From assembly GCA_000004985.1 (NCBI GenBank), contig GG738895.1: a DNA stretch of 64,000 bases. One strand, given 5' to 3'. Shown here piece by piece: positions 1 to 55,084 of this stretch. Both the position numbers and the translations under genes were made by a program. Under the pieces are notes generated by a model. That model was given only the letters and a program-made list of their open reading frames with translations, did no database searches and was not told the DNA's origin. The stretch's first letter is position 1; each line of letters opens with the position of its first letter. The DNA comes from Naegleria gruberi (taxonomy: Eukaryota).

Positions 1-431
1 ACCCAACCCAAACCCAAACCCAAACCCAAACCCAAACCCAAACCCAAACCCAAACCCAAACCCAAACCCAAACCCAAACCCAAACCCAAACCCAAACCCA
101 AACCCAAACCCAAACCCAAACCCAAACCCAAACCCAAACCCAAACCCAAACCCAAACCCAAACCCAAACCCAAACCCAAACCCAAACCCAAACCCAAACC
201 CAAACCCAAACCCAAACCCAAACCCAAACCCAAACCCAAACCCAAACCCAAACCCAAACCCAAACCCAAACCCAAACCCAAACCCAAACCCAAACCCAAA
301 CCCAAACCCAAACCCAAACCCAAACCCAAACCCAAACCCAAACCCAAACCCAAACCCAAACCCAAACCCAAACCCAAACCCAAACCCAAACCCAAACCCA
401 AACCCAAACCCAAACCCAAACCCAAACCCAC
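1..431. repeat. Telomeric repeat array (CCCAAA)n, ~70 units (G-strand TTTGGG); window starts at a chromosome end
   Basis: Perfect 6-nt periodicity CCCAAA from base 1 to ~431 with one CCCAA variant at the very start. The C-rich strand reads 5'->3' on +, as expected for a left chromosome end. It passes abruptly into unique AT-rich DNA at 432. Confidence 0.9.
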
Positions 432-1229
432 GACTAAGGTCAGACCCAACTTTTTTACTTTTATTCATCTTAATTCATTATCTCAATAAATACTCATTAT
501 AAATCAATATATTATATATCAATATACTCCAAATTGAATATATAATCATATAATAACATAATATAACATCATTATAATGACTTATATAAGTCAATTTCAT
601 AAAATAGATTAGACAATTAGAATATCAATGAAAACATTTCAAAATCATTTCAAATCAATTTATCACATTATAAATCATGTTAATAACAATATATATCAAT
701 TTCAAATACTTTGGTATCATTTCAGGATGTTTACTATTCAACTTGTCAACTGACCTATATTAACATTGAAAGTAGAAATCTATACCACTTCAATTCACTT
801 CCAATACATCTATACATGATAATGAAATACATTAATATCAATTTTACCTTCATCCATATAATACATGGTACATGGCTGATCTACTTGATACATACAGGGA
901 TGTGACAATGACATGCACTATACAGATCATTATGAAATTGATACAGTACCTTACTAATGGTGAATAAACACTACTGTATCAGTTTCATGATAATTTGAAA
1001 TCATTCAACATGTCAGGAGTGTAATTATGGGAATAATGAATATCAAGATAATGAAATCATATTAATTTAAAAATCTTTCAATTATAATATCATATATAGA
1101 TCAATTAATCATGGTATTTCAATAATTGGTATTGACTTTCAAATCAATTCATTCAAACCTTAATGACCTATCCTTAGATGACCAAGTCAATTTTAAACTA
1201 TCATGAATCATATAATTATTGATGCCATN

Positions 1230-1526
1230 NNNNNNNNNNNNNNNNNNNNNNNNNNNNNNNNNNNNNNNNNNNNNNNNNNNNNNNNNNNNNNNNNNNNNNN
1301 NNNNNNNNNNNNNNNNNNNNNNNNNNNNNNNNNNNNNNNNNNNNNNNNNNNNNNNNNNNNNNNNNNNNNNNNNNNNNNNNNNNNNNNNNNNNNNNNNNNN
1401 NNNNNNNNNNNNNNNNNNNNNNNNNNNNNNNNNNNNNNNNNNNNNNNNNNNNNNNNNNNNNNNNNNNNNNNNNNNNNNNNNNNNNNNNNNNNNNNNNNNN
1501 NNNNNNNNNNNNNNNNNNNNNNNNNN
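1230..1526. other. Assembly gap (297 N)
   Basis: Uninterrupted run of n characters. All ORF-track entries spanning it (1149..1616) are artefacts. Confidence 0.95.
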
Positions 1527-2540
1527 TGGTATCAATTATTTGTCGATAAAATAAATAGATATACGATATTATCAAATAAAATATATAGGTCCCTATTGAA
1601 AGTGTTTACCTGGTAAAAAGTGAGCGTAACTTCCCCTACTTTCATCCTAATTGATTATCTCCCTATATATATGATAGATTTCAATTATTTCAATTATATA
1701 TCATAATACATGATAATTAGACATGTATCAATGAGTGGAATTAAGTCATGTAAGATATTCATCCTTCAATTGCCAGTACTGTCAATTTCACACAAGTTGA
1801 CTTCCTACAGTCTGAATATGGGTCTAATAATGATTATTTCAATTATATATGATTATATTTGATATTTACTACTGTATATATGAGTTTAATAAATTAGTAT
1901 AGTGTTTCCATAGTATGGCTCAATATCTTGGTCAATTAAGGTAGAATGAGTACAGTATACTAAGGATATTATATATTATACTTCCAACACTTCTACAAGG
2001 TAGATATCATCATTATACATCATGTATATGAGATTGGTGATGATTCTAATAACATTCATATAATAATACAATAAATGTTGAAAAGTTAATATTTAGACAT
2101 GTTGTCATTTATTCAATATACCGATTCAACAAGATTAATTCATAATATCATCTATTCATACATATATCTACAATATATCAAAAATTTCATTCTGGCCCAA
2201 CTTTGAAATTTTAGACCTACTAGGGTAAAAACCTTAATATTTTAGGCAATGCCTTATAACTTTTTGGCCTCCAACTATGTTTTAATTTTTTCACCGGATT
2301 TAGTCAACTCATATATTGATCTATTGATTATGTGTAGATGGTATTTCAGATATTCCTAATTATTGAGATATGCGAAGAAAACCTAACTTTTTTTTCATCG
2401 AGTACCTATTATCTCTAGAACCACTTTGAGTTTTTATTATCATATAACAGTTTGTCGATGAAATTGTACCCTGATTAACATATATAAGATCCAAGTTTTG
2501 AATATTAGCCATTAATAAAATGGTAATGGGTTTTCGCCAT

Positions 2541-2567
2541 ACCCAAACCCAAACCCAAACCCAAACC
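2541..2567. repeat. Interstitial telomere-like tract (CCCAAA)x4.5
   Basis: acccaaacccaaacccaaacccaaacc lies 2.1 kb inside the terminal array in the same orientation, followed by a degenerate aacacc. Confidence 0.8.
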
Positions 2568-2715
2568 AACACCTTCTTTTGATGTTTCACTGGATAAACC
2601 TTATTACAGAGGAAATACTTCAATAAGAACAGATATTCAAAATTTTTTTGTTGGAGATCGTGTACGCTACAGATACCCAGACAATCAATGTATCAGTCCT
2701 GATACAGCTTTCAGT

Positions 2716-3099
2716 TTGTACCCTAATGCTGATGCTGTTCAGAGTGTTTGTGGATGTTCAAAGTTCTTTGCGATAATGCATACCGGATTCGGATTGGTAG
2801 ACAATTCTACTATTCCTGATGAGTATTATCCTTTGACAATTACTATCAAACCAAAGTTCCAAAAATATTCTACACAACAAGAGTATTTTTGCACAGCAAG
2901 TCCATTTTCTTGTTCTAGACAGCACTGTGAATGTACATCTGGAGGAGTTAATCTTGATGAAAGTAGTTTTTTTTTCCCTCCCATTAGCAATTCAATTAAT
3001 AGATATGGAAGTACTAGAAGTGTTTCATCAGCCATAACAATTTCACAAAATATTTATTTAATAGTTTTATTGATTTTCTTCATTTTGTATTTACAATAA
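2716..3099 (+). CDS. Hypothetical ORF (TTG start in track); Cys-containing, hydrophobic C-terminus; possibly a gene fragment
   Basis: 127-aa ORF with no recognisable domain. It ends in a hydrophobic tail (IYLIVLLIFFILYLQ). No ATG at the listed start. It lies in the subtelomeric zone next to a kinase remnant. Confidence 0.15.
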   Translation: MYPNADAVQSVCGCSKFFAIMHTGFGLVDNSTIPDEYYPLTITIKPKFQKYSTQQEYFCTASPFSCSRQHCECTSGGVNLDESSFFFPPISNSINRYGSTRSVSSAITISQNIYLIVLLIFFILYLQ

Positions 3100-3208: not shown

Positions 3209-3660
3209 TCATTCAATATTTGAATCATTTGCGAGAAGGAAGGTCTTTCCATTGGATTTGGATGCAAGTTCACAATACTTGAGCACACTCTTCATACTTT
3301 TCTCCTTCGATTGGTTTTCATGCACTGGATATAGTAATAACCATTCATTCAATTCATTTTCGTTTTCAAATGGAATACTTGGTCGTTCCCCTTTTAAAAC
3401 ATTTGAGATGATATCAACAATTGATCTATCCGATTGATACTTGGCTTTCTCTGATTTACAATAAGGAGAAACTTCGAAAAATAATTCCCACATTATAATA
3501 GCAAAGCTATACACGTCAACTTTGGGAGCCCTTTGAGATTTATCAGTATTACTATTACTCGTATTATCTGATCGAATTGTTTCCTATTTAAATAACAGGT
3601 AAGCTGAGAGGTAAGCTCAATCCGAAATCAACGATTTTACATGAATCAATCTCCTTCTTC
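3209..3660 (-). pseudogene. Protein kinase catalytic-domain remnant (subdomains VII-XI), apparently disrupted
   Basis: Minus-strand translation gives ...KIVDFGLS... (DFG motif) and ...APKVDVYSFAIIMWELF...PY...VLKGERPSIP (APE, subdomain IX-XI, TKL-like). Reading frame is broken between DFG and APE without a convincing GT..AG intron. No glycine loop or HRD region is found upstream. Confidence 0.4.
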
Positions 3661-4076
3661 CTCAATAATGACAGTCTTTTCTGAATGTGAACAATACCTT
3701 TTGTATAATATTTGAATTCAATGGAATAGTTTCAGAATCTAGTGACAGGGCAGTTACATTGACGAAAAATGTTTCTCCTGGTTTCACAACTTTCAAAACT
3801 GCTCTAATGTCAGTAAACTTAGCAGCAGCTGCCAATAAATTAGGACTGCTTTATTTCTAGTGAATAAGCAATTTTGAATGTAATTAGGATAATTATTACT
3901 GCCCAAAAGATAAATGGCACCTCCAAACTCATTTGCATATTATTTTGAAATGCAGTATTAGATATTATTCAGATATTTGTAAATTGTACATCATATCCAA
4001 GTTTAGTGCGCATCCACTGGTTTTACATACAGTATTAATAAAATTTGATTTGTAAATAATAACTTCAAACCTTGTA

Positions 4077-4961
4077 TTATCTGACATGGATTGTATAACC
4101 AGTTTTTACGTCATTGCTGTAATGATTTTGGATTGTAACATTTACCATAGATAAATCATCTACAATATAGAAAGAAATAGGTGAACTTATTTTTCCTGAA
4201 ATGGCTTGAGATTGAGCATTCCCATCAAAATCAACATTCATACTCTCAACCTTTTGTGCACTTCGTACTAAGAGAGAACCACCTGATCTTTTGAAAGATG
4301 AATCCTCAGAAAATTGAAACACAAATACAATTGCAAGTTTTGTACATTCTTCAATATGTATATTTCGTATCTTGATTTCTTTAACACTGATGGTATCCAC
4401 CATTAAGTTAGATTTCATAAACTGCCCATTTTGAAATATGATAAGATTAGCTTCATAGATTGGTAAATTTACAGATGCATCTTCCATGAAATTGTTTTGA
4501 AAAACAATCCGATTATTTCCTCTCAGCTCTATATAGCATCCTTGTAATAACTTGCCAACGAGTTTACAATCTTTGAATAATGTTAGATATGTTGCTGTAG
4601 TTAAAATGTTAGAACTGATTAGTTCACTACTTTCAACAATAAAATTAACTTTTGTAGGCTTAGTGTTGAAATCTACATCATTCATATGCTGAAATAGTGA
4701 GGACGTCAATTAGCAATTAGCATAACCAAAAGAGGTACTTATAATTTTTGAAAATATTCTAAAATTCACAATTTCAATATTATTAAATATTATCCAAGCA
4801 ACATCTGTTCTGTCTTTCAAATACATGTATGTGTTGCCCTTCTGGAAAGTCAAACCTCTCTTTTCAGAACTTTGAAACATGAAATAGTATGAAATTAATG
4901 AATTTGATGGTAAATCAAAATCTCCGTATGTGAATGAAAGATTACCTTCAATATTAATCAC
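4077..4961 (-). CDS. Hypothetical protein (two abutting ORFs 4077-4709 and 4710-4961, frameshift or tiny intron)
   Basis: Adjacent same-strand ORFs of 210 and 83 aa with ordinary coding composition. No recognisable motif. Confidence 0.3.
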
Positions 4962-5892
4962 AAATAGAATATTAATACTATTATTTCTAATATTGTTTCC
5001 ATGTTTTGATCCATAACTACTTTCATTGTTTTGAACAATTTACTAAAACTCTGGCAGGGATCATTCTGAATTCATGTTTCCTGCATATTTGATGTTTTTC
5101 ATTTTCAAATAAAAAACTGCTCGTGAGACGGAAGAGCTGTAGAACATGTTTTGCATAGCAGTGATGCTCACATAATTGGTTTGAATTATTTCTCTTTCAT
5201 TGCCAACAACATTAGGTGTATTGTAATATAAATTACTAAATATTGAAAGATTGTCTGATGAAGTATGTTGTTGGGTTGTTGTCGGAATCTATTAACCATT
5301 CCGAACAAGTTTGCAACTCTCACTACAAATTAATTTTACAAATACTATTGTTATGTTGCTTACGGAAATATATCATTGATGGTTGGAGAATGATAGGATG
5401 ATGATCACTGCACCAACTTGTATTTTTCCATCAAGAAAAATAATATCCAATTTCATGATAATCTACCAATAAAAATTACTATTATTCCTACTATTTAGAT
5501 CATGTTGAGATGATCATAAGGAAGTTTGGTGGAGGTTAATCATGCTGTTCATCAGACGTTACGGGTGATGAAATTTTTTTTAAAAATTTTTTAAAAAATT
5601 GAAAAAACATATTCCAATTTCTTACTATGGAGAATTTCATTATAAAATTATTATTGCACAATATAGAATAACTAGAATAACCAAGTTTTAAACTCAGAAT
5701 ACTATGTGCTTTAGTATTGTAAGAGTCAACCAAGACAATACCAAAAGAACTTCTCATCAACCTGTCAATTCAAACGATGTCCTTCCATTTCCGAGTGACA
5801 CGACTAAATGCAACTAAATTGACACAATTTCTCACCTTCCACTTCGCTTTCATCTTTTAAAAAAAATTTCACAGACCTACCTGCCAGAAATC

Positions 5893-7665
5893 ATGCGTTC
5901 AAAATCTCTCTTGATCGCTATCTTCTTGCTTTTGTGTTTGATCTTCACAGCTCAATCTTCATTTGCTGCTGAAGAACAATCAAACCCTCTCAAACAAGAA
6001 CTTTCCCGCCTTTTAAAATTAAAAAAACAACTCAAAACCAAGTGGAACCCTAGCCGTTATTTGAATGAGCGTATTTTGCGTATTGCCAAGAGATTTAGAA
6101 TTGCCATTCCTCAACGTTGCAAGAGACGTGTTATTATTGATGATGAAGTAGTTGATACTATTAGAAAATTGGCCGAGTGTGATCGTGATACTAAACCTGA
6201 ATTGCCAACCAATCCTTCCACTCCATCAAATCCATCTACACCAACAACACCATCTAATCCAAGTACTCCAACAAATCCTTCCACTCCAACAACACCACAA
6301 GAACCTACAAATCCTTCTGTTCCTACTGTTCCTTCCACTCCAACAACACCATCAACACCATCCAATCCAAGTACTCCAACCACTCCATCAAATCCAACTA
6401 CTCCATCTACTCCAACTCTTCCAAAATGTCCAAAGAGACTCACTTGTAGATTGTTGTGTAAGAATGGATATTATTACGATTCAAATGGATGTGTTGATAC
6501 TTGTCGTTGTAAGCCATCTTCTTGTCCACAATTCAGATGTTTGAGAGCTTGTCCATATGGATATAAGGTTAATGCTCGTGGATGTACCACTTGTGATTGT
6601 AAGCCAAAACCTTCCACTCCAACTAAACCAACTAAACCAACCTTTGAATGTCCAAAGCGTAAATGTGCTCGTTTGTGTGCCCATGGCTATAAGACTGATA
6701 GAAGAGGATGTCAAACTTGTTCTTGTGTTAGAAAGCCAGTCAGACCAACACCAGTTAGACCAACTCCTGTTAGACCAACACCAGTCAGACCAACACCTCC
6801 AGTTAGACCACCAGTTATTGTCACACCAACACCTGTTAGACCAACTCCAGTTGTCACACCAACACCTGTCAGACCAACACCTCCTCCAGTGAGACCACCA
6901 GTTGTTGTCAGACCACCAGTTGTCAGACCAAGACGTAGAAGAAGACGTTTCTTCGGAAGAGGTAGAGGTGACCCACATTACAGTTTGTTGCATGCCAGCA
7001 ATGCTGCCCATAAGGATGTACTTTTTAATGGATTGGGTGATTATATTTTAGCTGAAACTGTTGATAAGGAATTTATTGCTCATGTCAGAATTGGCAAGTG
7101 GCATAAGAAGGCTACTGTTAATATTGGTGCTGCCATCAAGCTTGGAACTGATGTTATTGAATTCGATTCTAAGGATGGTCAATTCTACCTTAATAAGGAA
7201 GAAGCTGAATTCAAGATTGGAAAGAAATATGAACTTGAAGGAGGTTCTCTTATTAGAAAGAGTGAAAATAGATTTATTATCAAGTCCGTTGATGGAGTTG
7301 AATTCTTTGGTGAAAGATTCACTCTCCACGATGGAAAGAGTTACATGGATGTCCAAGTTGATTCTCCAAAGGATGTTGAATTCAGACGTGGTTTGATTAT
7401 CAATGGTAAGGGCAGACAAGGAAAGGGTCTTTTCAGAGTTTTAAAGGCTGCTAAGGTTAATAAGAACGCTGTTGCTGTTGTTGAAATTCCAAAGTGGGCC
7501 AAGAAGGCTTGTGCTAAGCAAGGATTGACTGGAAAGAAACTCAAGGATTGTGCCTATGATATTACCGTTACAGGTAAGGAATTCGCCAAGGAAATTGCCA
7601 AGGATGAAGCCAAGTTTGCCAAGAAGAGTAGAAAGGTTTTAAAGGCTGTTTCTAAGAAGAAATAA
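5893..7665 (+). CDS. Secreted modular protein with a signal peptide, mucin-like Pro/Thr/Ser repeats, four antistasin-like 6-Cys modules, (PVRPT)n repeats, an Arg6 tract, a GDPH-motif (VWD-like) domain and a Lys-rich tail
   Basis: ATG at 5893. N-terminus MRSKSLLIAIFLLLCLIFTAQSSFA is a classic signal peptide. PSTPTTPSNPSTP repeats follow. Four copies of C-x5-C-x3-C-x2-G-x3-D-x2-GC-x3-C-x-C (e.g. CPKRLTCRLLCKNGYYYDSNGCVDTCRC) fit the antistasin-like spacing. PVRPTPVRPTP repeats, RRRRRR and then RGDPHYSLL... follow, GDPH being the VWD/RGM autocleavage motif. Single exon, TAA stop. Confidence 0.7.
   Translation: MRSKSLLIAIFLLLCLIFTAQSSFAAEEQSNPLKQELSRLLKLKKQLKTKWNPSRYLNERILRIAKRFRIAIPQRCKRRVIIDDEVVDTIRKLAECDRDTKPELPTNPSTPSNPSTPTTPSNPSTPTNPSTPTTPQEPTNPSVPTVPSTPTTPSTPSNPSTPTTPSNPTTPSTPTLPKCPKRLTCRLLCKNGYYYDSNGCVDTCRCKPSSCPQFRCLRACPYGYKVNARGCTTCDCKPKPSTPTKPTKPTFECPKRKCARLCAHGYKTDRRGCQTCSCVRKPVRPTPVRPTPVRPTPVRPTPPVRPPVIVTPTPVRPTPVVTPTPVRPTPPPVRPPVVVRPPVVRPRRRRRRFFGRGRGDPHYSLLHASNAAHKDVLFNGLGDYILAETVDKEFIAHVRIGKWHKKATVNIGAAIKLGTDVIEFDSKDGQFYLNKEEAEFKIGKKYELEGGSLIRKSENRFIIKSVDGVEFFGERFTLHDGKSYMDVQVDSPKDVEFRRGLIINGKGRQGKGLFRVLKAAKVNKNAVAVVEIPKWAKKACAKQGLTGKKLKDCAYDITVTGKEFAKEIAKDEAKFAKKSRKVLKAVSKKK
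6208..6420 (+). repeat. Coding tandem repeats (Pro/Thr/Ser mucin-like, ~18-21 nt units)
   Basis: Repeated ccatc(t/a)a(a/c)tcc(a/t)...actcca units encoding PSNPSTPTTP. They also generate the spurious antisense and alternate-frame ORFs 6111..6443, 6152..6544 and 6481..7011. Confidence 0.6.
6727..6948 (+). repeat. Coding tandem repeats (PVRPT 15-nt units) ending in an Arg6 tract
   Basis: ccagt(c/t)agaccaaca(cct) is repeated about 10 times and is followed by agacgtagaagaagacgt. Confidence 0.6.
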
Positions 7666-7816
7666 ATAGATCCTTTTCATTTACGTATTTGGTTTATCCC
7701 AAAAATGAATCACTGAATAGTACTACTTGCATTTCGAACAGTTCAGTCCAATCTAATTGTCAAAATCATTACTTGAATTAATCACCACAACTCTTTCATT
7801 TAATAGGTAAATAAAA

Positions 7817-8776
7817 ATGAATTACAAACTTAAACTGATACTAATTGTTATGGTTGTCTCGCTGGTGACTCTATTCGCTGAGAGAAATCTTCTGTTTTCA
7901 ATCCTTAACCATTATCCACATAAGGAAACAGAAGCAATTACAAACGAAATCCATGTCGTAACGATTTATGAAAATTCAGCAAAGGTACAATCTCCTCTTC
8001 TTGCATTTCTTCCGTGTCCTTCTCAGTCTCATTCTCAATCCCTAACCATTCATCTATTCATTAATTCCAATCACACAATTGAGTGTTTACAAAACAGATT
8101 AAGCTCTTGCCAAAGGTTAACTCTCAAATTTTACAGTTCATCAGAATTGAGCATCAATACTCAATCCACTCATTACAGTGCCTCATCTGCCAAAAAGAAA
8201 CTCAAATTATTACAATTTTTTCAACACAAAATTCAACGATTCTTATATTTGGACGCTGACACATTTTTAGTGCACGGATTTGAAGGATTAATTCAGGTGT
8301 GGAAGAATTTCTTATTATTCGAAAAGGATGAATTTATTGGAATGAGTAAAGAATTGAGTAATTGGTACAAGTATGATTCGTATAATTCTGGAGTCATCCT
8401 AATAGATATTCGAAAATCATTACAATATCCTTGGAAACAAATATTGGAAGAAACTATCCAAGATGTTGGAGTAACCCAACTTGCAGATCAGGATATTTTC
8501 AATGTAATTGATAGAAAAACAAGAGGAAAGTGGTTCCATCGAATAGATTGTGGACTAAACTTGCAACATGCTGGATGGAAAGAGTGTTCTACAAGTTGTG
8601 TAAGAATCATTCATTTCAATGCCATGCCAAATATTCAAAATACCACCAATCTTGCTTCCATGCTGAACTATGCCAGAAAAACCTATCAGTCAATTGGTTG
8701 TGAAACGACTATTTTCCCACATGATAATTTGTTTAATTGGATTGGTAATTCAAACATTAGCCTTATCTGTAAATAA
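7817..8776 (+). CDS. Glycosyltransferase family 8-like protein, type II membrane topology
   Basis: N-terminal signal anchor (LKLILIVMVVSLVTLF). Carries the GT8 hallmarks YLDADTFLV (DxD), YNSGVILIDI and DQDIFNVI. Confidence 0.55.
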   Translation: MNYKLKLILIVMVVSLVTLFAERNLLFSILNHYPHKETEAITNEIHVVTIYENSAKVQSPLLAFLPCPSQSHSQSLTIHLFINSNHTIECLQNRLSSCQRLTLKFYSSSELSINTQSTHYSASSAKKKLKLLQFFQHKIQRFLYLDADTFLVHGFEGLIQVWKNFLLFEKDEFIGMSKELSNWYKYDSYNSGVILIDIRKSLQYPWKQILEETIQDVGVTQLADQDIFNVIDRKTRGKWFHRIDCGLNLQHAGWKECSTSCVRIIHFNAMPNIQNTTNLASMLNYARKTYQSIGCETTIFPHDNLFNWIGNSNISLICK

Positions 8777-8863
8777 ATCAAAGATATTTGATTGATTTTT
8801 TATTGTAAACTCGTCAAACTCATTGTAAACTATTCGATTGGAACTAAAGCAAATTAAATTGAT

Positions 8864-9763
8864 TTAATAATCATCATAGTAATCATAATCATCATCATCA
8901 CTGCTGTCTTCACCACCATCGTAATCACTCCAGGATCGATGACTTGGACCTCCATCATAAAAGTGCCAAATTTTCACACCATCTTTCTTTTCAATAAAGT
9001 AGCGAATAGAAGTTTCGACTGGTTTCGTAATAAGAAAACTACAAATGAGATGGAAACTGTCATCGCATACTAAATTCAAAGGATGATTAAGTAATAATTG
9101 AGAATTTGGTGTCGCCTTAGTAGATTTTGCTTTTTCTCTAATTAGAAAAGCAGGTTTGAGATCTTTCCAAATCAATTCTTGACGTTTCTTCTTGGCGTTT
9201 AGCAGAAATTCATTTCTGACATTTGGCATAGTTGCTTGTGAGGCATAACTTTCCAATTCTAGCGGTCCTATTTCTTTACATTTTGGCAGAATCAACTTTA
9301 ACATGTCAATCTTAATGTTGTCACATGACATTTTCAAAATATTATACCAATTAAAATCTGCATCCAAACAACAATGATCAAACACACTTTTAAATATCCA
9401 ATAATCACCCTTTTCAATCGAAACAAGAAGTGCCTTCTTTCTACTCGATCTAATTATCTCAGTACTTGCTAACCAATTGACCAATTGTTCATTTCCACTT
9501 TTAACTGCCAATGTCAAAGGATCTTCCCCCTTCAACACAAACCTTATAGCATTCCTTCCTTTTCCAGATTTTTCATAAATTATTTTAGCAATTTCATAAT
9601 TTCCATTTTCACACGCGTGAATAAATGAAGTTTTTCCATCGAAATCTTTCATGCCCATGTTACAACCGGCAGAGATTAAGCATTTGATTATTTCAGAGTC
9701 GAGATTTTCTTGTTGTGCTGCGACCATGAGTGGGGATTGACCGTTTCGTCCATGAATTCGCAT
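8864..9763 (-). CDS. Ankyrin-repeat protein with an acidic Asp/Tyr-rich C-terminus
   Basis: Ankyrin consensus stretches (GQSPLMVAAQQENLDSEIIKCLISAGCNMGMKDFDGKTSFIHACENGNYEIAKII...DPLTLAVKSGNEQLVNWL). C-terminal DDDDYDYYDDY. An in-frame extension upstream of the ATG lacks a start, so an extra 5' exon is possible. Confidence 0.6.
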   Translation of the reverse strand: MRIHGRNGQSPLMVAAQQENLDSEIIKCLISAGCNMGMKDFDGKTSFIHACENGNYEIAKIIYEKSGKGRNAIRFVLKGEDPLTLAVKSGNEQLVNWLASTEIIRSSRKKALLVSIEKGDYWIFKSVFDHCCLDADFNWYNILKMSCDNIKIDMLKLILPKCKEIGPLELESYASQATMPNVRNEFLLNAKKKRQELIWKDLKPAFLIREKAKSTKATPNSQLLLNHPLNLVCDDSFHLICSFLITKPVETSIRYFIEKKDGVKIWHFYDGGPSHRSWSDYDGGEDSSDDDDYDYYDDY

Positions 9764-10005
9764 ATTGAATAGTTTTCTGTTGAGGGAGAAATGTTTAACT
9801 TGCCAATAGTTATTGGATTCGATGGCTGTTATTAGTTGATCAAGTTCTTGAGACTTTTTTTCATTGTTGAGTGGAATGTGGAATAATTATTTGGGATTTA
9901 GCTTGGAATGGAAATTTTCTTTAAATGAATCATAATTATGTCCAATACAAAGAAAACTAAACACTTATTCTAGAAAATTAGATGGCCAATCAACAAACAA
10001 TTCAT

Positions 10006-11091
10006 TTATCTCACATACATATTTGCTTTTGGTATTACCGAATATGAACCACTAAATGTCCATTGCTTGAAAGTTGAACCTGCACATAGATTATACACAT
10101 GAGAATTCTGATTAAGAGGACCACCTCCAAAAAGACAATAATCTAAACCTGTTCCATCACATCCATTGTTTTCTATATGACCCAGTGAAAGATCTGTCAA
10201 TTTAGTGCTCAATGGGACACAAATTCCCGGAGCTGTCCAAACAGAAATTAAAGAAACAGCAAAACCTGTTCCTGTTGCATCTTTCCACATGATCTCAGTT
10301 GATGCACTTCTCAACATGGCCCATTTATCATCTCTCATTGAAGCACCATCACTGGTTACATTGACTATATCAACATAATATGGAGCTAGTTGAACATTTC
10401 TTGATGAAACAAGTGCCCAACCACCTCCATTAGCAGATTGTTCACAATAGACCACAAATTCTGATTTGGTAGCATCAGGTTTAATCCAATACAAACCACT
10501 CACTGCAGAATCATTGAATTGTTTCTTATATTCAGCACAGGATTTCAAAATGCCACTTCCAAATGTGAAAATACTATTGGTGGAAGAGAGAGTTTGCACA
10601 TCACAATTAGATCCTGTCCAACCACTCTTACATGTGGAACATGTGGCTCCATCCCAATTTCCTGAACAAACTGAACATTGACCTGCAGATGAGCATACAG
10701 AACATTTGACATCACATGAAGATTTTACAATATTACAATCAGGACCATCAAATGCATTACATGTAGAATTGAAAATTTGAATTTCTTCTGAAAGAGTAGC
10801 ATAAGCTCTCTTTACCTTACTTAATTGAGTTTGACGAATTGAGAGCGATGTGAAATTTGCCTTACTCAATACTGCAATTACCTTTTCCAATTGAGAGACG
10901 GTTAATTCTAATGCAGATGCCTCTTTCTTTAATGAATTTAACCAATCTCTGACATTACCAGAAGTAGTGGAAGTGCTATTGGTTGTTGCCGCAGCACAAG
11001 ACCATCCACCACCGTTGAGAGATGGAAAGGCATGTAACAATAGACAACATACCACTAAGCACATCATCAACAATCCGTTGGCTGTAGACAT
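10006..11091 (-). CDS. Secreted fibrinogen-related-domain (FReD) protein with an EGF-like Cys-rich segment
   Basis: Signal peptide, coiled-coil segment and Cys-rich CSVCSSAGQCSVCSGNWDGATCSTCKSGWTGSNC. Then ...GLYWIKPD...FVVYCEQSANGGGWALVS..., matching the fibrinogen C-terminal signature (F.VYCDM...GGGWTV). Confidence 0.6.
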   Translation of the reverse strand: MSTANGLLMMCLVVCCLLLHAFPSLNGGGWSCAAATTNSTSTTSGNVRDWLNSLKKEASALELTVSQLEKVIAVLSKANFTSLSIRQTQLSKVKRAYATLSEEIQIFNSTCNAFDGPDCNIVKSSCDVKCSVCSSAGQCSVCSGNWDGATCSTCKSGWTGSNCDVQTLSSTNSIFTFGSGILKSCAEYKKQFNDSAVSGLYWIKPDATKSEFVVYCEQSANGGGWALVSSRNVQLAPYYVDIVNVTSDGASMRDDKWAMLRSASTEIMWKDATGTGFAVSLISVWTAPGICVPLSTKLTDLSLGHIENNGCDGTGLDYCLFGGGPLNQNSHVYNLCAGSTFKQWTFSGSYSVIPKANMYVR

Positions 11092-11668
11092 TTTTTTAAC
11101 TGTGAAAATTGCACAATCTTGTCGTTATCATCTACTGAAAATGGAAATGTAATGTAGGGCTCTGTAGTTTGCTGTAGTGACAACTCCAATTTGGGAGGGT
11201 AACCTCCTCGTTAGGAAATTTAATTGTGAAATAAATAATGGCTTGTGCACTTGATTTTCAATGGTCTTTTCACAAGGAAGAAAGGATCATTCCCACCGAA
11301 ATCTCACAATACAGTGCACTGTGTTACGGTGAGATTGGAGACTATTCTGGTATTTGCCATCTTTTATACATCAACAGTATAGAGAGCTTTTCCAATATTA
11401 AATTCTTTAGAAACCTTAATTAATTTTACTAGTTTAAGGTAACAGTGAATGACATCATCCTGATCACTCTAAAATGTGTGTAGCCTACAAGCAATTGATC
11501 TTGTTGAGAAAGACCAATTTTGAAAATGTTAAATTCATGGATATTCACCTAAACTTTTTAGGTAGTGGAAATGGTATGTGGAAGGGATAACTAGAACTAC
11601 TTTTGTAAATTACAACATTCCAATTCCAGAATATCTCCAGATGGCTATTTAACCCACTTGGACTAGAT

Positions 11669-12657
11669 TTATTTCTTTTTCATGGATGGACATCTATCAT
11701 CACACTTATTCAAACTAGCATCATGGAATAAAAAGTGCATGGTTGAGAATACTCTAAATGAACTCTCCTTTTCCATGCAATTATCTGAACAGAAATTCTT
11801 ACAAAACAATGATGGAATGAATGGACCTTCCCATTGCCCAACTGGCCACAATTCTTGTAATTGATGAGTATAGAATAGGATTGCACTGACGAAACCATCA
11901 TGGTACATTGGAATGACTGGCATTAGAGTGTAACTGTAACCTGACAAGTTTGGATGTTCAACCAAGTCAAAACCCCAATGTGTACTTTAATTTTTTTTTT
12001 TAAAAAAAATAATTAAAAAATTTAAAAATATAAATAATGTTAATAATTAAATATAAATAATGTTAATAATAATGTAAATATAAATATTCAAAATTACCCC
12101 ATGCCCGTAATGCACCCTCCTTTGGTAAATTGTGCCTTATCTGCTTCAGCTTCTGTTAATGGAACTGAAATTGGAAATTTACTATTTGGAGCTACCAATA
12201 ATCGATCTCCTAAAACTCCTCCTTTTGTATCCAATTGCCCAGAGCATGCAAAAGCTGGATCACGAGTAGAAACTTCAATTTGATAAACATCAGGTGAAAC
12301 TCTCTTCCAGAAACTAGCTTGTTCCAATTGACTTAAAACTCCATGAACTCTAACACCAAAACCACCCAGTTGACCAGCTTTTGTATAATAAACAACAATT
12401 CTATCATTAATGAAGCCATATCCAAGATTTGGAATGCATGCCCCATTTTCAATTGGTGTATTCCAATCGGATGAATTTCTGGCTTGTGTAATGTTTAAAG
12501 GCATTGGAGTTTTACTAAAAAATGTATGAAGTAAACGATCTCCAAGTCCAATCCATGGTTGTTGTTTGTGTGGTGAAAGACCTCGGAGAGGAACATTTGC
12601 ATGCACAAAGGTGAGAATTAGAAACAATGCAGAGATGAGCAAAATGAATTTTGACAT
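11669..12657 (-). CDS. Secreted hypothetical protein, 2 exons (12657..12098 and 11984..11669; intron 11985..12097)
   Basis: The signal peptide MSKFILLISALFLILTFVHA starts at the ATG at 12657 (the track's 12750 ATG adds 31 non-signal residues). The 113-nt AT-rich intron has a GTAATT donor and TTAAAG acceptor and joins the two track ORFs in frame (...GGCITGM-G-THWGFDLVEHPN...). Confidence 0.45.
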
Positions 12658-52507: not shown

Positions 52508-55084
52508 ATGCCAACTAAAATTCAACCATTCAATTTGCAACCAACAAGTTCAGAAACCAAGATTCGTTCCACAGCACAACTCTCCACACAAACATCGTGC
52601 TTTGAATTTACAAAGGAAGGAGGAGGAATTGCATCTTCTGATTATGATCCAGATCATGATTTGGAAGAACCACTCAATGGAGTGGAAATGACACAAACTA
52701 CATGTGCTCAATGTATTTCTATTCGGTTATTTATTATCATTCTGATGACTTCCTTGTTATTGGTGTGCTCTATTTTAATTTGGCTCACTGGATTTGTCAT
52801 GTCCCAGCAAGCTCTTAATTCCATGTCGAGTGAATTAATGGCCACCTATGGACAATCTATCATTCGCTTCATGGATGGTCAAGTAAGACCTTACATTGCA
52901 GCCACACACTCAGTAGCCGACGATTACAACATTGGACTTGTTGGAAGAGCTCCACCATTGTCCTATCTCTACAAAAAGTACTCGACCTTCAAACCATACG
53001 GTATTGGTTTGGTATTTGATGATGAGTTGAATACTTTCAATACTTTTGGTGTTCCACCGAATGAAGTAGCAGCTTACTACCAAACTCCAAAGGGACAACC
53101 AATTTTGAATACATGGAGTGTGAATACTACCAGCCCCAATGTCACAATCAATGGATTGTACAAGATTACCAGCAATTATCTCACCACAAAGCAAAGTTAT
53201 TGGATTACCGCCTTTGGTTTATTTGAAAAACATCCAGAAATGGAGGGCGTCTTTGGCTCTTCAATTTATTACGTGCCAGGGGGTGGTTACACCATGTATT
53301 ATTGTGCAAAATTGTATGATCCTTCTATTTATTTCAATACTGGTAATAAGGTGGTTGTTGGTGTGGCCAAGACCAATTTGGCTGTAAATATCATTCAGAG
53401 ATTCCTCTCAAAAGTAACCTTATTCGGTACAGGTTACTTACTTGTTGCAGAGGATAATGATTTAGTCATTGGAGGTAATATCAATACCACTGCTTTGGAT
53501 AAGGTCTCCCGTGTATCCATGTTTGATTTGGAAGATCGTGATTCTGGCAAGTTGATGCAAAAGATTTCGATCACATACGGAGATTTGAACATGGCCCCAG
53601 CTCACTTTGAAATGAACAGTGTGGGAGTTGATTATTTCATATCGAGATTTGAATTTCAATTATTGAACTTGCAATGGCATGTGTTCATGGTTCTGAAAAG
53701 GGATGAAGTTCAAGAAGCACTCAATATAAGTTCTGGTGTTTCGGTAGCTGTCACATTTATCATTATAATATTTGGTGTGGCAATCAGTTTTGCTATTGGT
53801 GTCATTATCACAAGACCATTCAAAGTTCTGGAACGTGAATTTGGAAAAATCAAAACAATGGACCTTGAACATGTAATGATTTCACAAAGCAAACTCAAGG
53901 AAGTAGACATTATATATGGATATCTCTTTGAAATGACAGCATGGCTCAATGAAATTAAGAGTTTCATCCCAGAGAGCGTCTTTCTCCAGCTAAAGAATGC
54001 CAAGCATGAGGAAACCAAACGAGTTCAACTTTTTGAAAAGAAGCAAATCAGTGTAACTGAGCTGCAATCCAAGAATAGTAGAAATTTCTCTGCTATTGGT
54101 TCACACTTTTCTGGTTTCTCTAGAAATTGTCCAGATCCAGGTGCATCCAACTTGTTCAAGATGGGTCTCAATGTGAAAAAGACTGCAGTGATTAGAATTA
54201 CACTTCCTGGGTTTTCCAAATCCTATTCGGCAGCTATCATTTCACACGTCTTTTCAAAGATTGTTTCTGGTCTATCTACCATTTCTAAGGCTATCCAAGC
54301 CGATTTTTCAATTAGCTCTGTTGAGGAATTCCAAATCATTGTGAGTGCTGATGAATCACCAAACAAAAAGACTATTAACATTCAAAGTTTGGATGCCGCA
54401 TTGAAATTCTCTAAATTGATTCAAACCATCAATGATACTTCCCAACTCAATATCAAGTGCTGTATTGGTGTGAGTGTTGGTAAGGCCAATGTTGGTAATT
54501 TGGGTTGTGCCAGTTTTAGATCATTTAGTGTGGTTGGTGGTATTTTAGAAAATGCCAAGCGCCTCAGTAAGCTGGCTAACTTGCTTAATTGTAAGATTTT
54601 GACAGACCCTGGATGTTTGGACTCTCAAACAAGACAATACTTTGTTTCCAGACCAGTCGAAAGATTACTTATGGAACCACCAATTTATGAAAACTGTCAA
54701 GCAACAGTTTCTGGATGCATTTCAACAGTATTCGAAGTTGAAAAGGAAAGATCAGTAGAAAGTGATGAATGGATGTATGAATTGCAACAACACAAGGCCA
54801 ACGAAAAGTTCTCTGATTTTTGCAAGTACTTTGTCTTTGATCAGGATTATTCACAATTAGGAAATTCATTACTGGTCGAAACTTTAAAGCAAACTGAACA
54901 ACAACTCAAAGATGAAGTGGAAATCCAATTGTCAGGTGATGTGATTGCTCTTCGGTTATTGAGAAGTATTCAAACATTTATTGGAAGATCTCACGATTTA
55001 GAAAAGCACCACGTGAAACTTTCAGATGCCTTGTTGAATTATTATACTAAACTTGATACTTCCATGTTAGAAGTATTTCCATAA
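52508..55084 (+). CDS. Receptor-type cyclase-homology protein (TM - ~310-aa extracytoplasmic domain - TM - juxtamembrane - degenerate class III cyclase domain); likely pseudo-cyclase
   Basis: Two TM helices (LFIIILMTSLLLVCSILIWLTGFVM; VSVAVTFIIIIFGVAISFAIGVIIT). The cyclase-like domain VIRITLPGFSK...IIVSADE...CCIGVSVGKANVGNLG...SVVGGILENAKRLS aligns to the neighbouring active-type cyclase. The first metal-binding Asp is Leu, while the Asn/Arg pair is retained. Confidence 0.65.
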   Translation: MPTKIQPFNLQPTSSETKIRSTAQLSTQTSCFEFTKEGGGIASSDYDPDHDLEEPLNGVEMTQTTCAQCISIRLFIIILMTSLLLVCSILIWLTGFVMSQQALNSMSSELMATYGQSIIRFMDGQVRPYIAATHSVADDYNIGLVGRAPPLSYLYKKYSTFKPYGIGLVFDDELNTFNTFGVPPNEVAAYYQTPKGQPILNTWSVNTTSPNVTINGLYKITSNYLTTKQSYWITAFGLFEKHPEMEGVFGSSIYYVPGGGYTMYYCAKLYDPSIYFNTGNKVVVGVAKTNLAVNIIQRFLSKVTLFGTGYLLVAEDNDLVIGGNINTTALDKVSRVSMFDLEDRDSGKLMQKISITYGDLNMAPAHFEMNSVGVDYFISRFEFQLLNLQWHVFMVLKRDEVQEALNISSGVSVAVTFIIIIFGVAISFAIGVIITRPFKVLEREFGKIKTMDLEHVMISQSKLKEVDIIYGYLFEMTAWLNEIKSFIPESVFLQLKNAKHEETKRVQLFEKKQISVTELQSKNSRNFSAIGSHFSGFSRNCPDPGASNLFKMGLNVKKTAVIRITLPGFSKSYSAAIISHVFSKIVSGLSTISKAIQADFSISSVEEFQIIVSADESPNKKTINIQSLDAALKFSKLIQTINDTSQLNIKCCIGVSVGKANVGNLGCASFRSFSVVGGILENAKRLSKLANLLNCKILTDPGCLDSQTRQYFVSRPVERLLMEPPIYENCQATVSGCISTVFEVEKERSVESDEWMYELQQHKANEKFSDFCKYFVFDQDYSQLGNSLLVETLKQTEQQLKDEVEIQLSGDVIALRLLRSIQTFIGRSHDLEKHHVKLSDALLNYYTKLDTSMLEVFP

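What the first reader, a model, noticed from the sequence alone, without database searches (positions are those of the whole stretch)
5893..11091. Subtelomeric neighbourhood of surface-glycoprotein-type genes (mucin-like protein, GT8 glycosyltransferase, fibrinogen-related lectin-like protein)
The first intact genes after the telomere are all secretory-pathway proteins on a ~5 kb stretch. They are a PTS-rich mucin-like protein, a type II membrane GT8 transferase 150 bp downstream that could glycosylate such substrates, and a secreted FReD protein, a fold commonly used for carbohydrate recognition. The co-location at a chromosome end is reminiscent of contingency and surface-variation loci in other protists.
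Basis: inference. Interest (0 to 1): 0.55.

Follow-up and report, generated by a model that had tools for sequence, protein, structure and literature searches.

The report
Secreted-protein genes at Naegleria chromosome end
The three genes are real and lie at a chromosome end of the amoeba Naegleria gruberi, but they look like unrelated neighbours with a cytosolic gene between them, not a working glycosylation cluster or a surface-variation locus, so the finding is ordinary.

Summary
The window is a Naegleria gruberi chromosome end: a (CCCAAA)n array at 1-430, which is the published TTTGGG telomere repeat.

All three ORFs sit at the stated coordinates, and the domain calls hold with qualifications.
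[quoted passage not shown] It is the annotated XP_002672706.1, already described as an antistasin-like protein with orthologues across the genus.
- Gene B (7817-8776) is a GT8 enzyme closest to the LARGE1 xylosyltransferase domain. Its DxD motif and downstream His are intact.

Nothing supports a functional or contingency cluster. There are no paralogue arrays or shared repeats. The N. fowleri orthologue of A has unrelated downstream neighbours. A-like and B-like genes lie on separate contigs elsewhere. Codon bias differs between the genes.

Secretory genes are locally enriched: 4 of the first 5 intact genes versus 0 of 22 further in (post hoc).

Verdict: an ordinary subtelomeric neighbourhood.

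The parts
1..430 (.). Terminal telomere array (CCCAAA)n, 71.8 copies
   Evidence: TTTGGG is the published candidate N. gruberi telomere repeat (PMC3622300)
2537..2567 (.). Interstitial telomere repeat in the same orientation as the terminal array
2569..3099 (+). 5'-truncated Cys-rich ORF with a hydrophobic C-terminal tail. It is open right through the interstitial telomere repeat and has no upstream start codon. Gene remnant.
   Evidence: frame translation; no Pfam family
3209..4961 (-). Decayed receptor-kinase-like gene: in-frame stops and frameshifts, a TM-like segment and a kinase C-lobe
   Evidence: the stitched translation hits PK_Tyr_Ser-Thr at 5.1e-5 and Pkinase at 1e-5
5893..7665 (+). 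Gene A (XP_002672706.1, 590 aa). Signal peptide; PTS tract (residues ~100-178); 3 antistasin repeats (residues 179-278); P/V/R/T-rich tract (281-345); R6 run; VWD domain with GDPH (nt 6967-6978); K-rich tail.
   Evidence: PMC12482156 Table S3; VWD in Naegleria noted in PMC4948705
7817..8776 (+). Gene B (319 aa). N-terminal hydrophobic anchor (residues ~5-21) and a GT8 catalytic domain with DxD (D146-A-D148, nt 8252-8260) and the His of the IHFN motif (H266).
8864..9763 (-). Ankyrin-repeat gene (XP_002672787.1, NAEGRDRAFT_72069, 299 aa). No signal sequence, acidic C-terminal tail.
10006..11091 (-). Gene D (XP_002672788.1, NAEGRDRAFT_72070, 361 aa). Signal peptide, predicted long helices (~47-113), EGF-like Cys-rich region (~111-165), and a compact fibrinogen-like head (residues 178-361 = nt 10009-10560).
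12094..12657 (-). ORF E (187 aa from the internal Met MSKFILL...). Hydrophobic signal-like N-terminus; no recognisable domain.

Best explanation
This is an ordinary subtelomeric stretch of the Naegleria gruberi genome. It holds independently acting genes, and most of them happen to encode secretory-pathway proteins.

- Gene A is a secreted protein, probably O-glycosylated. It combines protease-inhibitor-type antistasin knots with a VWD domain that likely self-cleaves at GDPH. It is conserved across the genus and probably acts as an extracellular adhesive, matrix or protease-inhibiting protein.
- Gene B is a Golgi-type retaining GT8 glycosyltransferase of the LARGE / XXYLT-like kind. Such enzymes add an alpha-linked sugar to an existing glycan.
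- The next gene is a cytosolic ankyrin protein.
- Gene D is a secreted protein with a helical stalk, EGF-like repeats and a compact fibrinogen/intelectin-like head. It plausibly acts as an oligomeric glycan-binding protein for prey or surface recognition.
- ORF E is a small secreted protein of unknown fold.

Their co-location reflects the general tendency of lineage-restricted, environment-facing genes to sit near chromosome ends. It does not reflect co-regulation, an enzyme-substrate relation or programmed variation.

Shown: gene positions, domain and fold assignments, lack of conserved linkage.
Inferred: subcellular locations, glycosylation, lectin activity, GDPH cleavage.
For: - Organism and chromosome end.
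- Domains: Antistasin 7e-19; VWD through the homologue and the profile; GT8, with DxD and His conserved in the 52%-identical relative P0007.
- Independence of the genes:
  - an ankyrin gene lies in the middle;
  - there are no paralogues in the window and no shared repeats;
  - the N. fowleri A orthologue has unrelated downstream neighbours;
  - A-like and B-like genes are unlinked in ERZ929261;
  - A is in a genus-wide orthogroup;
  - A has AAG/Lys 0.74 and TTC/Phe 0.62, against 0.33/0.50 for B and 0.42/0.42 for D.
- Local enrichment of signal-bearing genes: 4/5 versus 0/22.
- Decay next to the telomere.
Against: - I could not read any other N. gruberi chromosome end. I also had no position data for the D paralogues, which lie on other scaffolds, so recurrence at other subtelomeres is untested.
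- No expression data were available.
- The N. fowleri contig starts inside the A orthologue, so its upstream side is unseen.
- L002 and L003 may be paralogues rather than orthologues, because the same metagenome holds a 95%-identical N. gruberi-complex strain.
- The protein database is incomplete for Naegleria: it lacks A itself (versus 58). Its negative results on paralogues are therefore weak.
- The 4/5 versus 0/22 enrichment leaves room for some regional organisation.
Confidence: 0.72

Rival explanations
1. Enzyme-substrate module. The GT8 enzyme B, 151 bp downstream of A, extends the O-glycans on A's PTS tracts (or the glycans on D). The genes are kept together for co-regulation.
For: - A and B are on the same strand, 151 bp apart.
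- B's best solved relative is the LARGE1 GT8 domain, and LARGE1 acts on a mucin-domain protein, alpha-dystroglycan (established knowledge).
- A has PTS tracts.
- All three have secretory N-termini.
Against: - Short intergenic distances are normal in this gene-dense window.
- Linkage is absent downstream of the N. fowleri A orthologue, and between the A-like and B-like genes in ERZ929261.
- Codon bias is discordant.
- No shared upstream motif or repeat was found.
- B has only the GT8 half of LARGE. Nothing ties its acceptor to A.
Confidence: 0.1
2. Contingency or surface-variation locus. Subtelomeric position drives rapid diversification, switching or silencing of surface glycoprotein genes, as at VSG, var or adhesin loci.
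For: - Subtelomeric position.
- Gene remnants, an interstitial telomere repeat and a pseudogene next to it show past end-rearrangement.
- Repeat number in A's orthogroup varies between species: Pfam finds 3 antistasin stretches here and Table S3 lists 11 domains in N. fowleri.
- Secretory genes are enriched.
Against: - No multigene family. A has a single N. gruberi entry in its orthogroup, B has no detected paralogue, and D has two FReD-like paralogues on other scaffolds.
- No paralogues or homology tracts in the window.
- The PTS repeats are imperfect, 64-77% matches.
- D plus its flanks are collinear at 95-96% identity in a related strain.
- A is conserved across the genus.
Confidence: 0.05
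3. Pure coincidence. There is no subtelomere effect at all, and the run of secretory genes is a chance fluctuation noticed after the fact.
For: - The test is post hoc and rests on one window and a crude hydropathy rule.
- The four secretory genes are unrelated in sequence and fold.
Against: - 4/5 versus 0/22 (p = 2.8e-4) is a strong local contrast.
- Enrichment of secreted, lineage-specific genes at subtelomeres is a common pattern in eukaryotes (general knowledge).
Confidence: 0.13

Closest known systems
Naegleria/Willaertia antistasin-like secreted proteins, orthogroup OG0001630 (PMC12482156)
   Same: Gene A is the listed N. gruberi member XP_002672706.1: 590 aa, signal peptide, antistasin repeats. 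It has orthologues in N. fowleri, N. lovaniensis and N. clarki.
   Different: The section and table I read do not mention the C-terminal VWD/GDPH module or the gene's subtelomeric position. Table S3 lists 2 antistasin domains; Pfam hmmscan here finds 3 stretches.
Gel-forming mucins / FCGBP (VWD-C8-TIL assemblies with PTS domains)
   Same: [quoted passage not shown] The family profile hits FCGBP VWD domains at 2.2e-9, and the 'LKDCAYDxxVTG' segment aligns with FCGBP 'LDDCVFDLCVTG'. VWD in Naegleria was already noted by Lang et al. 2016.
   Different: A single VWD, no Pfam C8 or TIL hit, and antistasin instead of TIL. The PTS tract is only ~80 aa. No cystine-knot or other polymerisation domain. 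The VWD region has just two cysteines.
GT8 glycosyltransferases of the LARGE1 XylT domain / XXYLT1 type
   Same: GT8 Pfam hit above the gathering score. LARGE1 GT8 domain at 1.6e-8, with the DxD and the IHxN His aligned. XXYLT1 at 0.012. The N-terminal hydrophobic anchor suggests a type II Golgi enzyme.
   Different: Only 319 aa and no GT49 second domain. Donor and acceptor are unknown. Only one close relative was found (P0007, 52% identity).
Fibrinogen-related domain lectins (ficolins, tachylectin-5A, angiopoietins) and X-type lectins (intelectin/XEEL)
   Different: The head is 184 aa against ~215-280. The distal ~120 residues have no sequence similarity to canonical B/P subdomains. Foldseek TM is only 0.45-0.5. 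It belongs to a separate compact family (468 hits) found in protists and bacteria. No ligand site can be mapped.
Subtelomeric contingency gene families (trypanosome VSG, Plasmodium var, yeast FLO/EPA adhesins)
   Same: Position next to a telomere, secreted or surface proteins, and nearby pseudogenes and gene remnants.
   Different: No paralogous arrays, no shared flanking repeats, conserved single-copy orthologues, and a housekeeping-type cytosolic gene interleaved.

Membership tests
Antistasin-like domain proteins (PF02822) | Repeated Cys-rich antistasin domain recognised by the family profile | tested here: met
   E 7.2e-19, 68.4 bits against a 21.2 cutoff, 3 stretches. Listed as such in PMC12482156 Table S3.
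Antistasin-like domain proteins (PF02822) | Serine-protease inhibitory activity | not testable with these tools
   Needs biochemistry. The paper notes fewer cysteines than in characterised antistasins.
VWD domain with autocatalytic GDPH | VWD fold recognised by a profile | tested here: met
   A itself misses Pfam VWD. Its 60%-identical homologue P0001 hits at 2.8e-6 (28.2 bits against 22.9). The 3-sequence profile hits FCGBP at 2.2e-9.
VWD domain with autocatalytic GDPH | G-D-P-H motif at the start of the VWD beta-sandwich | tested here: met
   GDPH at residues 359-362 (nt 6967-6978), conserved in P0001.
VWD domain with autocatalytic GDPH | Asp-Pro cleavage actually occurs | not testable with these tools
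   Requires protein analysis. Cleavage depends on residues beyond the motif (PMC10880436).
Gel-forming mucin | Long PTS domain(s) | tested here: inconclusive
   An ~80-aa tract with P 33%, T 30%, S 16%, plus a 65-aa P/V/R/T tract. This is short by mucin standards, and glycosylation is untested.
Gel-forming mucin | VWD-C8-TIL D assemblies and C-terminal polymerisation domains | tested here: not met
   No C8, TIL or cystine-knot Pfam hit. Lang et al. state that protist VWD occurs without C8/TIL.
CAZy GT8 | Profile match to Glyco_transf_8 above the curated cutoff | tested here: met
   26.8 bits against 24.3, profile positions 35-244 of 253. LARGE1 GT8 domain at 1.6e-8.
CAZy GT8 | DxD metal/nucleotide-sugar motif and downstream His | tested here: met
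   LDADT aligns with LARGE1 LDTDI, and IHFN aligns with IHWN. Both are invariant in P0007.
CAZy GT8 | Type II Golgi membrane topology | tested here: inconclusive
   A single N-terminal hydrophobic segment (KD 3.1, residues ~5-21) follows a short basic stub. No predictor or localisation data were available.
CAZy GT8 | Acceptor is the neighbouring mucin-like protein | not testable with these tools
   No data. Linkage is not conserved.
Fibrinogen-related domain (FReD) superfamily | FReD fold | tested here: met
   [not shown]
Fibrinogen-related domain (FReD) superfamily | Full-length match to the Fibrinogen_C profile, including the ligand-binding P subdomain | tested here: not met
   Only profile positions 3-50 of 221 match. 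The 28-sequence family profile matches solved FReDs only over its first ~60 positions.
Fibrinogen-related domain (FReD) superfamily | Carbohydrate (acetyl-group or diol) binding | not testable with these tools
   No ligand site could be mapped. Needs glycan-array or binding assays.
Subtelomeric contingency / surface-variation locus | Location adjacent to a telomere | tested here: met
   Gene A starts 5.5 kb from the terminal repeat array.
Subtelomeric contingency / surface-variation locus | Members of a large paralogous family with copies in arrays or at several ends | tested here: not met
   No paralogues in the window. A has a single N. gruberi entry in its orthogroup. D has two FReD-like paralogues, on other scaffolds. 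Caveat: other chromosome ends were not readable.
Subtelomeric contingency / surface-variation locus | Rapid turnover or presence/absence variation between close strains | tested here: inconclusive
   Only D and its flanks could be compared: collinear and 95-96% identical in L004. A and B were not recovered from that strain.
Functionally linked gene cluster | Gene neighbourhood conserved in related species | tested here: not met
   The N. fowleri contig L001 has no B, Ank, D or E homologue within 10 kb downstream of the A orthologue. L002 and L003 are unlinked.

The most novel reading that the evidence does not exclude
The block A-B-(Ank)-D-E could be a recently assembled, N. gruberi-lineage 'surface glyco-island'. 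In this reading the LARGE-like GT8 enzyme builds a specific alpha-linked glycan on the antistasin/VWD protein, or on the stalked fibrinogen-like protein. The compact fibrinogen/intelectin-like head would read glycans on prey or on self. That would be a non-metazoan counterpart of the mucin / glycosyltransferase / lectin triad, held at a chromosome end where it can be silenced or lost.
Probability: 0.06. Interest if true: 0.5.

Novelty: new member of a known kind. Interest (0 to 1): 0.17.

Why it matters
As it stands this matters little. It is one more case of secreted, lineage-restricted genes sitting beside a telomere, and two of the genes were already in the literature.

The by-products are of modest use:
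- One Naegleria protein carries both 'animal-type' modules that were previously reported separately, antistasin (2025) and VWD (2016). The VWD carries an intact GDPH self-cleavage motif.
- The D head belongs to a compact fibrinogen/intelectin-like domain family of 468 detected members (E <= 0.001) shared by protists and bacteria.
- N. gruberi uses one stalk with either this head or a TLDc head.

These observations could guide work on how a bacterivorous amoeba recognises prey or builds its surface coat. They do not make an open question newly testable.

Tried and rejected
1. I first inferred that genes A and B were unannotated, because the 15-billion-protein collection lacks them. This was wrong for A: Table S3 of PMC12482156 lists it as XP_002672706.1. 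The collection is therefore incomplete for Naegleria, and I no longer use its silence as evidence.

2. AlphaFold on full-length D with a 2-sequence alignment failed (pLDDT 34), so I ran no fold search on that model. A 28-sequence alignment of the head alone worked.

3. The look-up of encoding contigs holds no N. gruberi gene positions. The contexts of the D paralogues and the other chromosome ends could not be read.

4. Two metagenome scans for B relatives, one with the single protein and one with an alignment, found nothing.

5. The afdb50 fold library was unavailable.

6. I treated L002 and L003 as orthologous contexts, then downgraded them. L004, from the same metagenome, is 95-96% identical to the window, so the 52-63%-identical A-like and B-like genes may be paralogues or come from another species.

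7. A search for shared upstream motifs or repeats between the genes found only the coding repeats inside A and AT-rich low-complexity matches.

8. A PDB search with full-length A returned mostly low-complexity PT-rich noise.

9. A literature search by accession numbers gave nothing relevant. The Naegleria pangenome paper does not discuss telomeres or subtelomeres.

Full report
WHERE WE ARE

The window starts with 71.8 copies of CCCAAA (1-430). TTTGGG is the candidate telomere repeat published for Naegleria gruberi (PMC3622300). The ORF at 10006-11091 (minus strand) is 100% identical to N. gruberi XP_002672788.1 / NAEGRDRAFT_72070. The ORF at 8864-9763 (minus strand) is identical to XP_002672787.1 / NAEGRDRAFT_72069. 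Both lie on a 333,733-bp reference scaffold. So this is a genuine N. gruberi chromosome end. G+C is about 27-39% along the window. Nearly all genes read as single uninterrupted ORFs in the standard code.

BETWEEN THE TELOMERE AND THE FINDING

This region holds no intact gene.
- There is AT-rich DNA with a 298-N assembly gap (1229-1526).
- An interstitial telomere repeat (2537-2567) has the same orientation as the terminal array. It is fused directly to an ORF that stays open from about 2530 to 3099. That ORF has no start codon before 2716, is Cys-rich and ends in a hydrophobic tail.
- On the minus strand from about 5400 to 3209 there is a receptor-kinase-like gene broken by in-frame stops and frameshifts. 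Its stitched translation hits PK_Tyr_Ser-Thr at 5.1e-5.

GENE A (5893-7665, +, 590 aa)

The architecture, in order:
- a hydrophobic signal-like N-terminus;
- a tract at residues 100-180 with 33% Pro, 30% Thr and 16% Ser, encoded by imperfect 9/18/27-nt repeats;
- three antistasin domains (Pfam 7.2e-19);
- a P/V/R/T-rich tract with 15-nt periodicity;
- six arginines;
- a 240-residue C-terminal module beginning GDPH (nt 6967-6978).

The C-terminal module does not reach Pfam VWD by itself. Its 60%-identical homologue P0001 does (2.8e-6, 28.2 bits against a 22.9 cutoff). A three-sequence profile hits the VWD domains of human FCGBP at 2.2e-9, including a segment aligned to 'LDDCVFDLCVTG'.

The literature already covers both halves. 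Table S3 of PMC12482156 lists this exact protein (XP_002672706.1) among Naegleria antistasin-like proteins. It is in orthogroup OG0001630 with orthologues in N. fowleri (842 aa, 11 domains), N. lovaniensis and N. clarki. Lang et al. 2016 noted VWD domains in Naegleria without C8 or TIL (PMC4948705).

'Mucin-like' is acceptable as loose description. The defining D-assembly and polymerisation domains of gel-forming mucins are absent.

GENE B (7817-8776, +, 319 aa, 151 bp after A)

- The N-terminus is a short basic stub followed by a hydrophobic segment.
- Pfam Glyco_transf_8 scores 26.8 bits against a 24.3 cutoff.
- The best solved relative is the GT8 xylosyltransferase domain of LARGE1 (1.6e-8), followed by XXYLT1 (0.012).
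- 'LDADT' aligns to LARGE1 'LDTDI', and 'IHFN' aligns to 'IHWN'.
- Both motifs are invariant in the only close relative found, P0007 (52% identity; alignment).

This is a credible active GT8 enzyme. Its donor and acceptor are unknown. GT8 enzymes extend existing glycans and do not initiate mucin-type O-glycosylation (established CAZy knowledge).

This is an ankyrin-repeat protein (Ank_2 1.9e-16). It has no hydrophobic N-terminus and an acidic tail, so it is presumably cytosolic. The stretch is therefore not 'all secretory'.

GENE D (10006-11091, -, 361 aa)

The architecture is a signal-like N-terminus, long predicted helices (residues ~47-113), an EGF-like Cys-rich region, and then a 184-residue head.

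Sequence evidence for the head:
- Pfam Fibrinogen_C matches only its first ~50 residues.
- An exhaustive HMMER search of 1.84 billion representatives found 468 relatives at E <= 0.001. Some are small proteins matched over the whole head. Others are giant proteins in which only the first ~50 residues recur, up to 14 times.
- Named examples include Phalansterium, another N. gruberi paralogue (NAEGRDRAFT_68173) and an alphaproteobacterial MAG.
- A 28-sequence profile of the whole-head class hits fibrinogen, XEEL/intelectin, tachylectin-5A, angiopoietin, tenascin and ficolin at 1e-13 to 1e-7. The match again covers only the first ~60 positions.

Structure evidence for the head:
- AlphaFold with that alignment gave pLDDT 93.1 and pTM 0.90.
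- The Foldseek hits shown (top 50) are all fibrinogen-related domains, at TM 0.45-0.5.

The head is a true but compact member of the fibrinogen-like fold. The ligand-binding subdomain cannot be recognised by sequence, so lectin activity remains an inference from architecture.

A FURTHER SECRETORY ORF, E (12094-12657, -)

It has a signal-like N-terminus and no family or PDB match.

IS THE CO-LOCATION MEANINGFUL?

By a simple hydropathy rule, 4 of the first 5 intact genes have secretory N-termini, against 0 of 22 ORFs in the remaining 50 kb (Fisher p = 2.8e-4). That test is post hoc and crude, but it suggests a real regional bias of the kind common at eukaryotic chromosome ends.

Every test of a functional or contingency cluster came out negative.
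- No paralogue of A, B, D or E lies in the window.
- The genes share no repeats or upstream motifs.
- Contig L001 is N. fowleri: its translation is identical over at least 140 residues to XP_044559591.1 in Table S3. There the A orthologue is followed by an actin-fragmin kinase, CH-domain and NHL genes, with no B or D homologue in 10 kb.
- In metagenome ERZ929261, an A-like gene (63%) and a B-like gene (52%) lie on different contigs with unrelated neighbours.
- That same metagenome holds a contig 95-96% identical to, and collinear with, window 9659-12010. So D and its flanks are stable in a related strain. It also means the A-like and B-like genes may be paralogues rather than orthologues.
- A shows the strongest AAG/TTC codon preference of 22 ORFs (0.74 and 0.62), while B (0.33 and 0.50) and D (0.42 and 0.42) do not. 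This hints at different expression levels.

LIMITS

- No other N. gruberi chromosome end and no expression data could be examined.
- The big protein collection proved incomplete for Naegleria. It lacks A itself, although A is a RefSeq protein. Negative paralogue counts from it are therefore weak.
- The N. fowleri contig begins inside the A orthologue, so its upstream side is unseen.

VERDICT

It misses the interleaved ankyrin gene.

The interpretation as a glycoprotein module or a contingency-like locus is not supported. The best reading (about 0.7) is an ordinary subtelomeric neighbourhood of unrelated secretory-pathway genes. An enzyme-substrate module (about 0.1), pure coincidence (about 0.13) and a variation locus (about 0.05) remain as rivals.

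Novelty is low. A's antistasin and VWD modules were each reported before, and the subtelomeric bias is a known pattern. Interest is 0.17.

Noticed in passing
window 2537-3099: An interstitial telomere repeat (CCAAAC x5, same orientation as the terminal array) is fused in-frame to a start-less, Cys-rich ORF ending in a hydrophobic tail. It looks like a surface-protein gene truncated at a former chromosome break, healed by telomere addition and later capped by 2.1 kb of new distal sequence.
   Followed up: partly
window 3209-5400 (minus strand): A decayed receptor-kinase-like gene: extracellular-type ORFs split by an in-frame stop, a TM-like segment, and a kinase C-lobe reached only by frame-shifting. 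The stitched translation hits PK_Tyr_Ser-Thr at 5e-5.
   Followed up: partly
[not shown]
   Followed up: partly
proteins P0008-P0010 (Phalansterium transcript; metagenome contigs): The first ~50 residues of the fibrinogen-like head recur as a stand-alone unit up to 14 times in giant 3000-4000-aa proteins of protists and environmental sequences.
   Followed up: no
window 12094-12657 (minus strand): A further 187-aa ORF with a signal-like N-terminus and no Pfam or PDB match.
   Followed up: partly
window 5893-7665: Gene A has the strongest AAG (0.74; 0.92 in the VWD part) and TTC (0.62) codon preference among 22 ORFs of the window. This suggests high expression, unlike B and D.
   Followed up: partly
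L001 10596-11765 vs window 53723-54844: The N. fowleri contig carrying the A orthologue also carries, ~9 kb away, a homologue (40-54% identity by tblastx) of the 858-aa multi-TM ORF at window 52508-55084 (domains not checked). Residual synteny or a paralogue; not resolved.
   Followed up: no
window 1229-1526: A 298-base run of N (assembly gap) lies inside the subtelomeric AT-rich region, so the distal 1.2 kb is joined by scaffolding rather than by continuous sequence.
   Followed up: no
accessions of A, Ank and D: A is XP_002672706.1, while the adjacent Ank and D are XP_002672787.1 and XP_002672788.1. The numbers are not consecutive although the genes are neighbours here. I could not tell whether this reflects accession ordering by strand or a difference between assemblies.
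   Followed up: no
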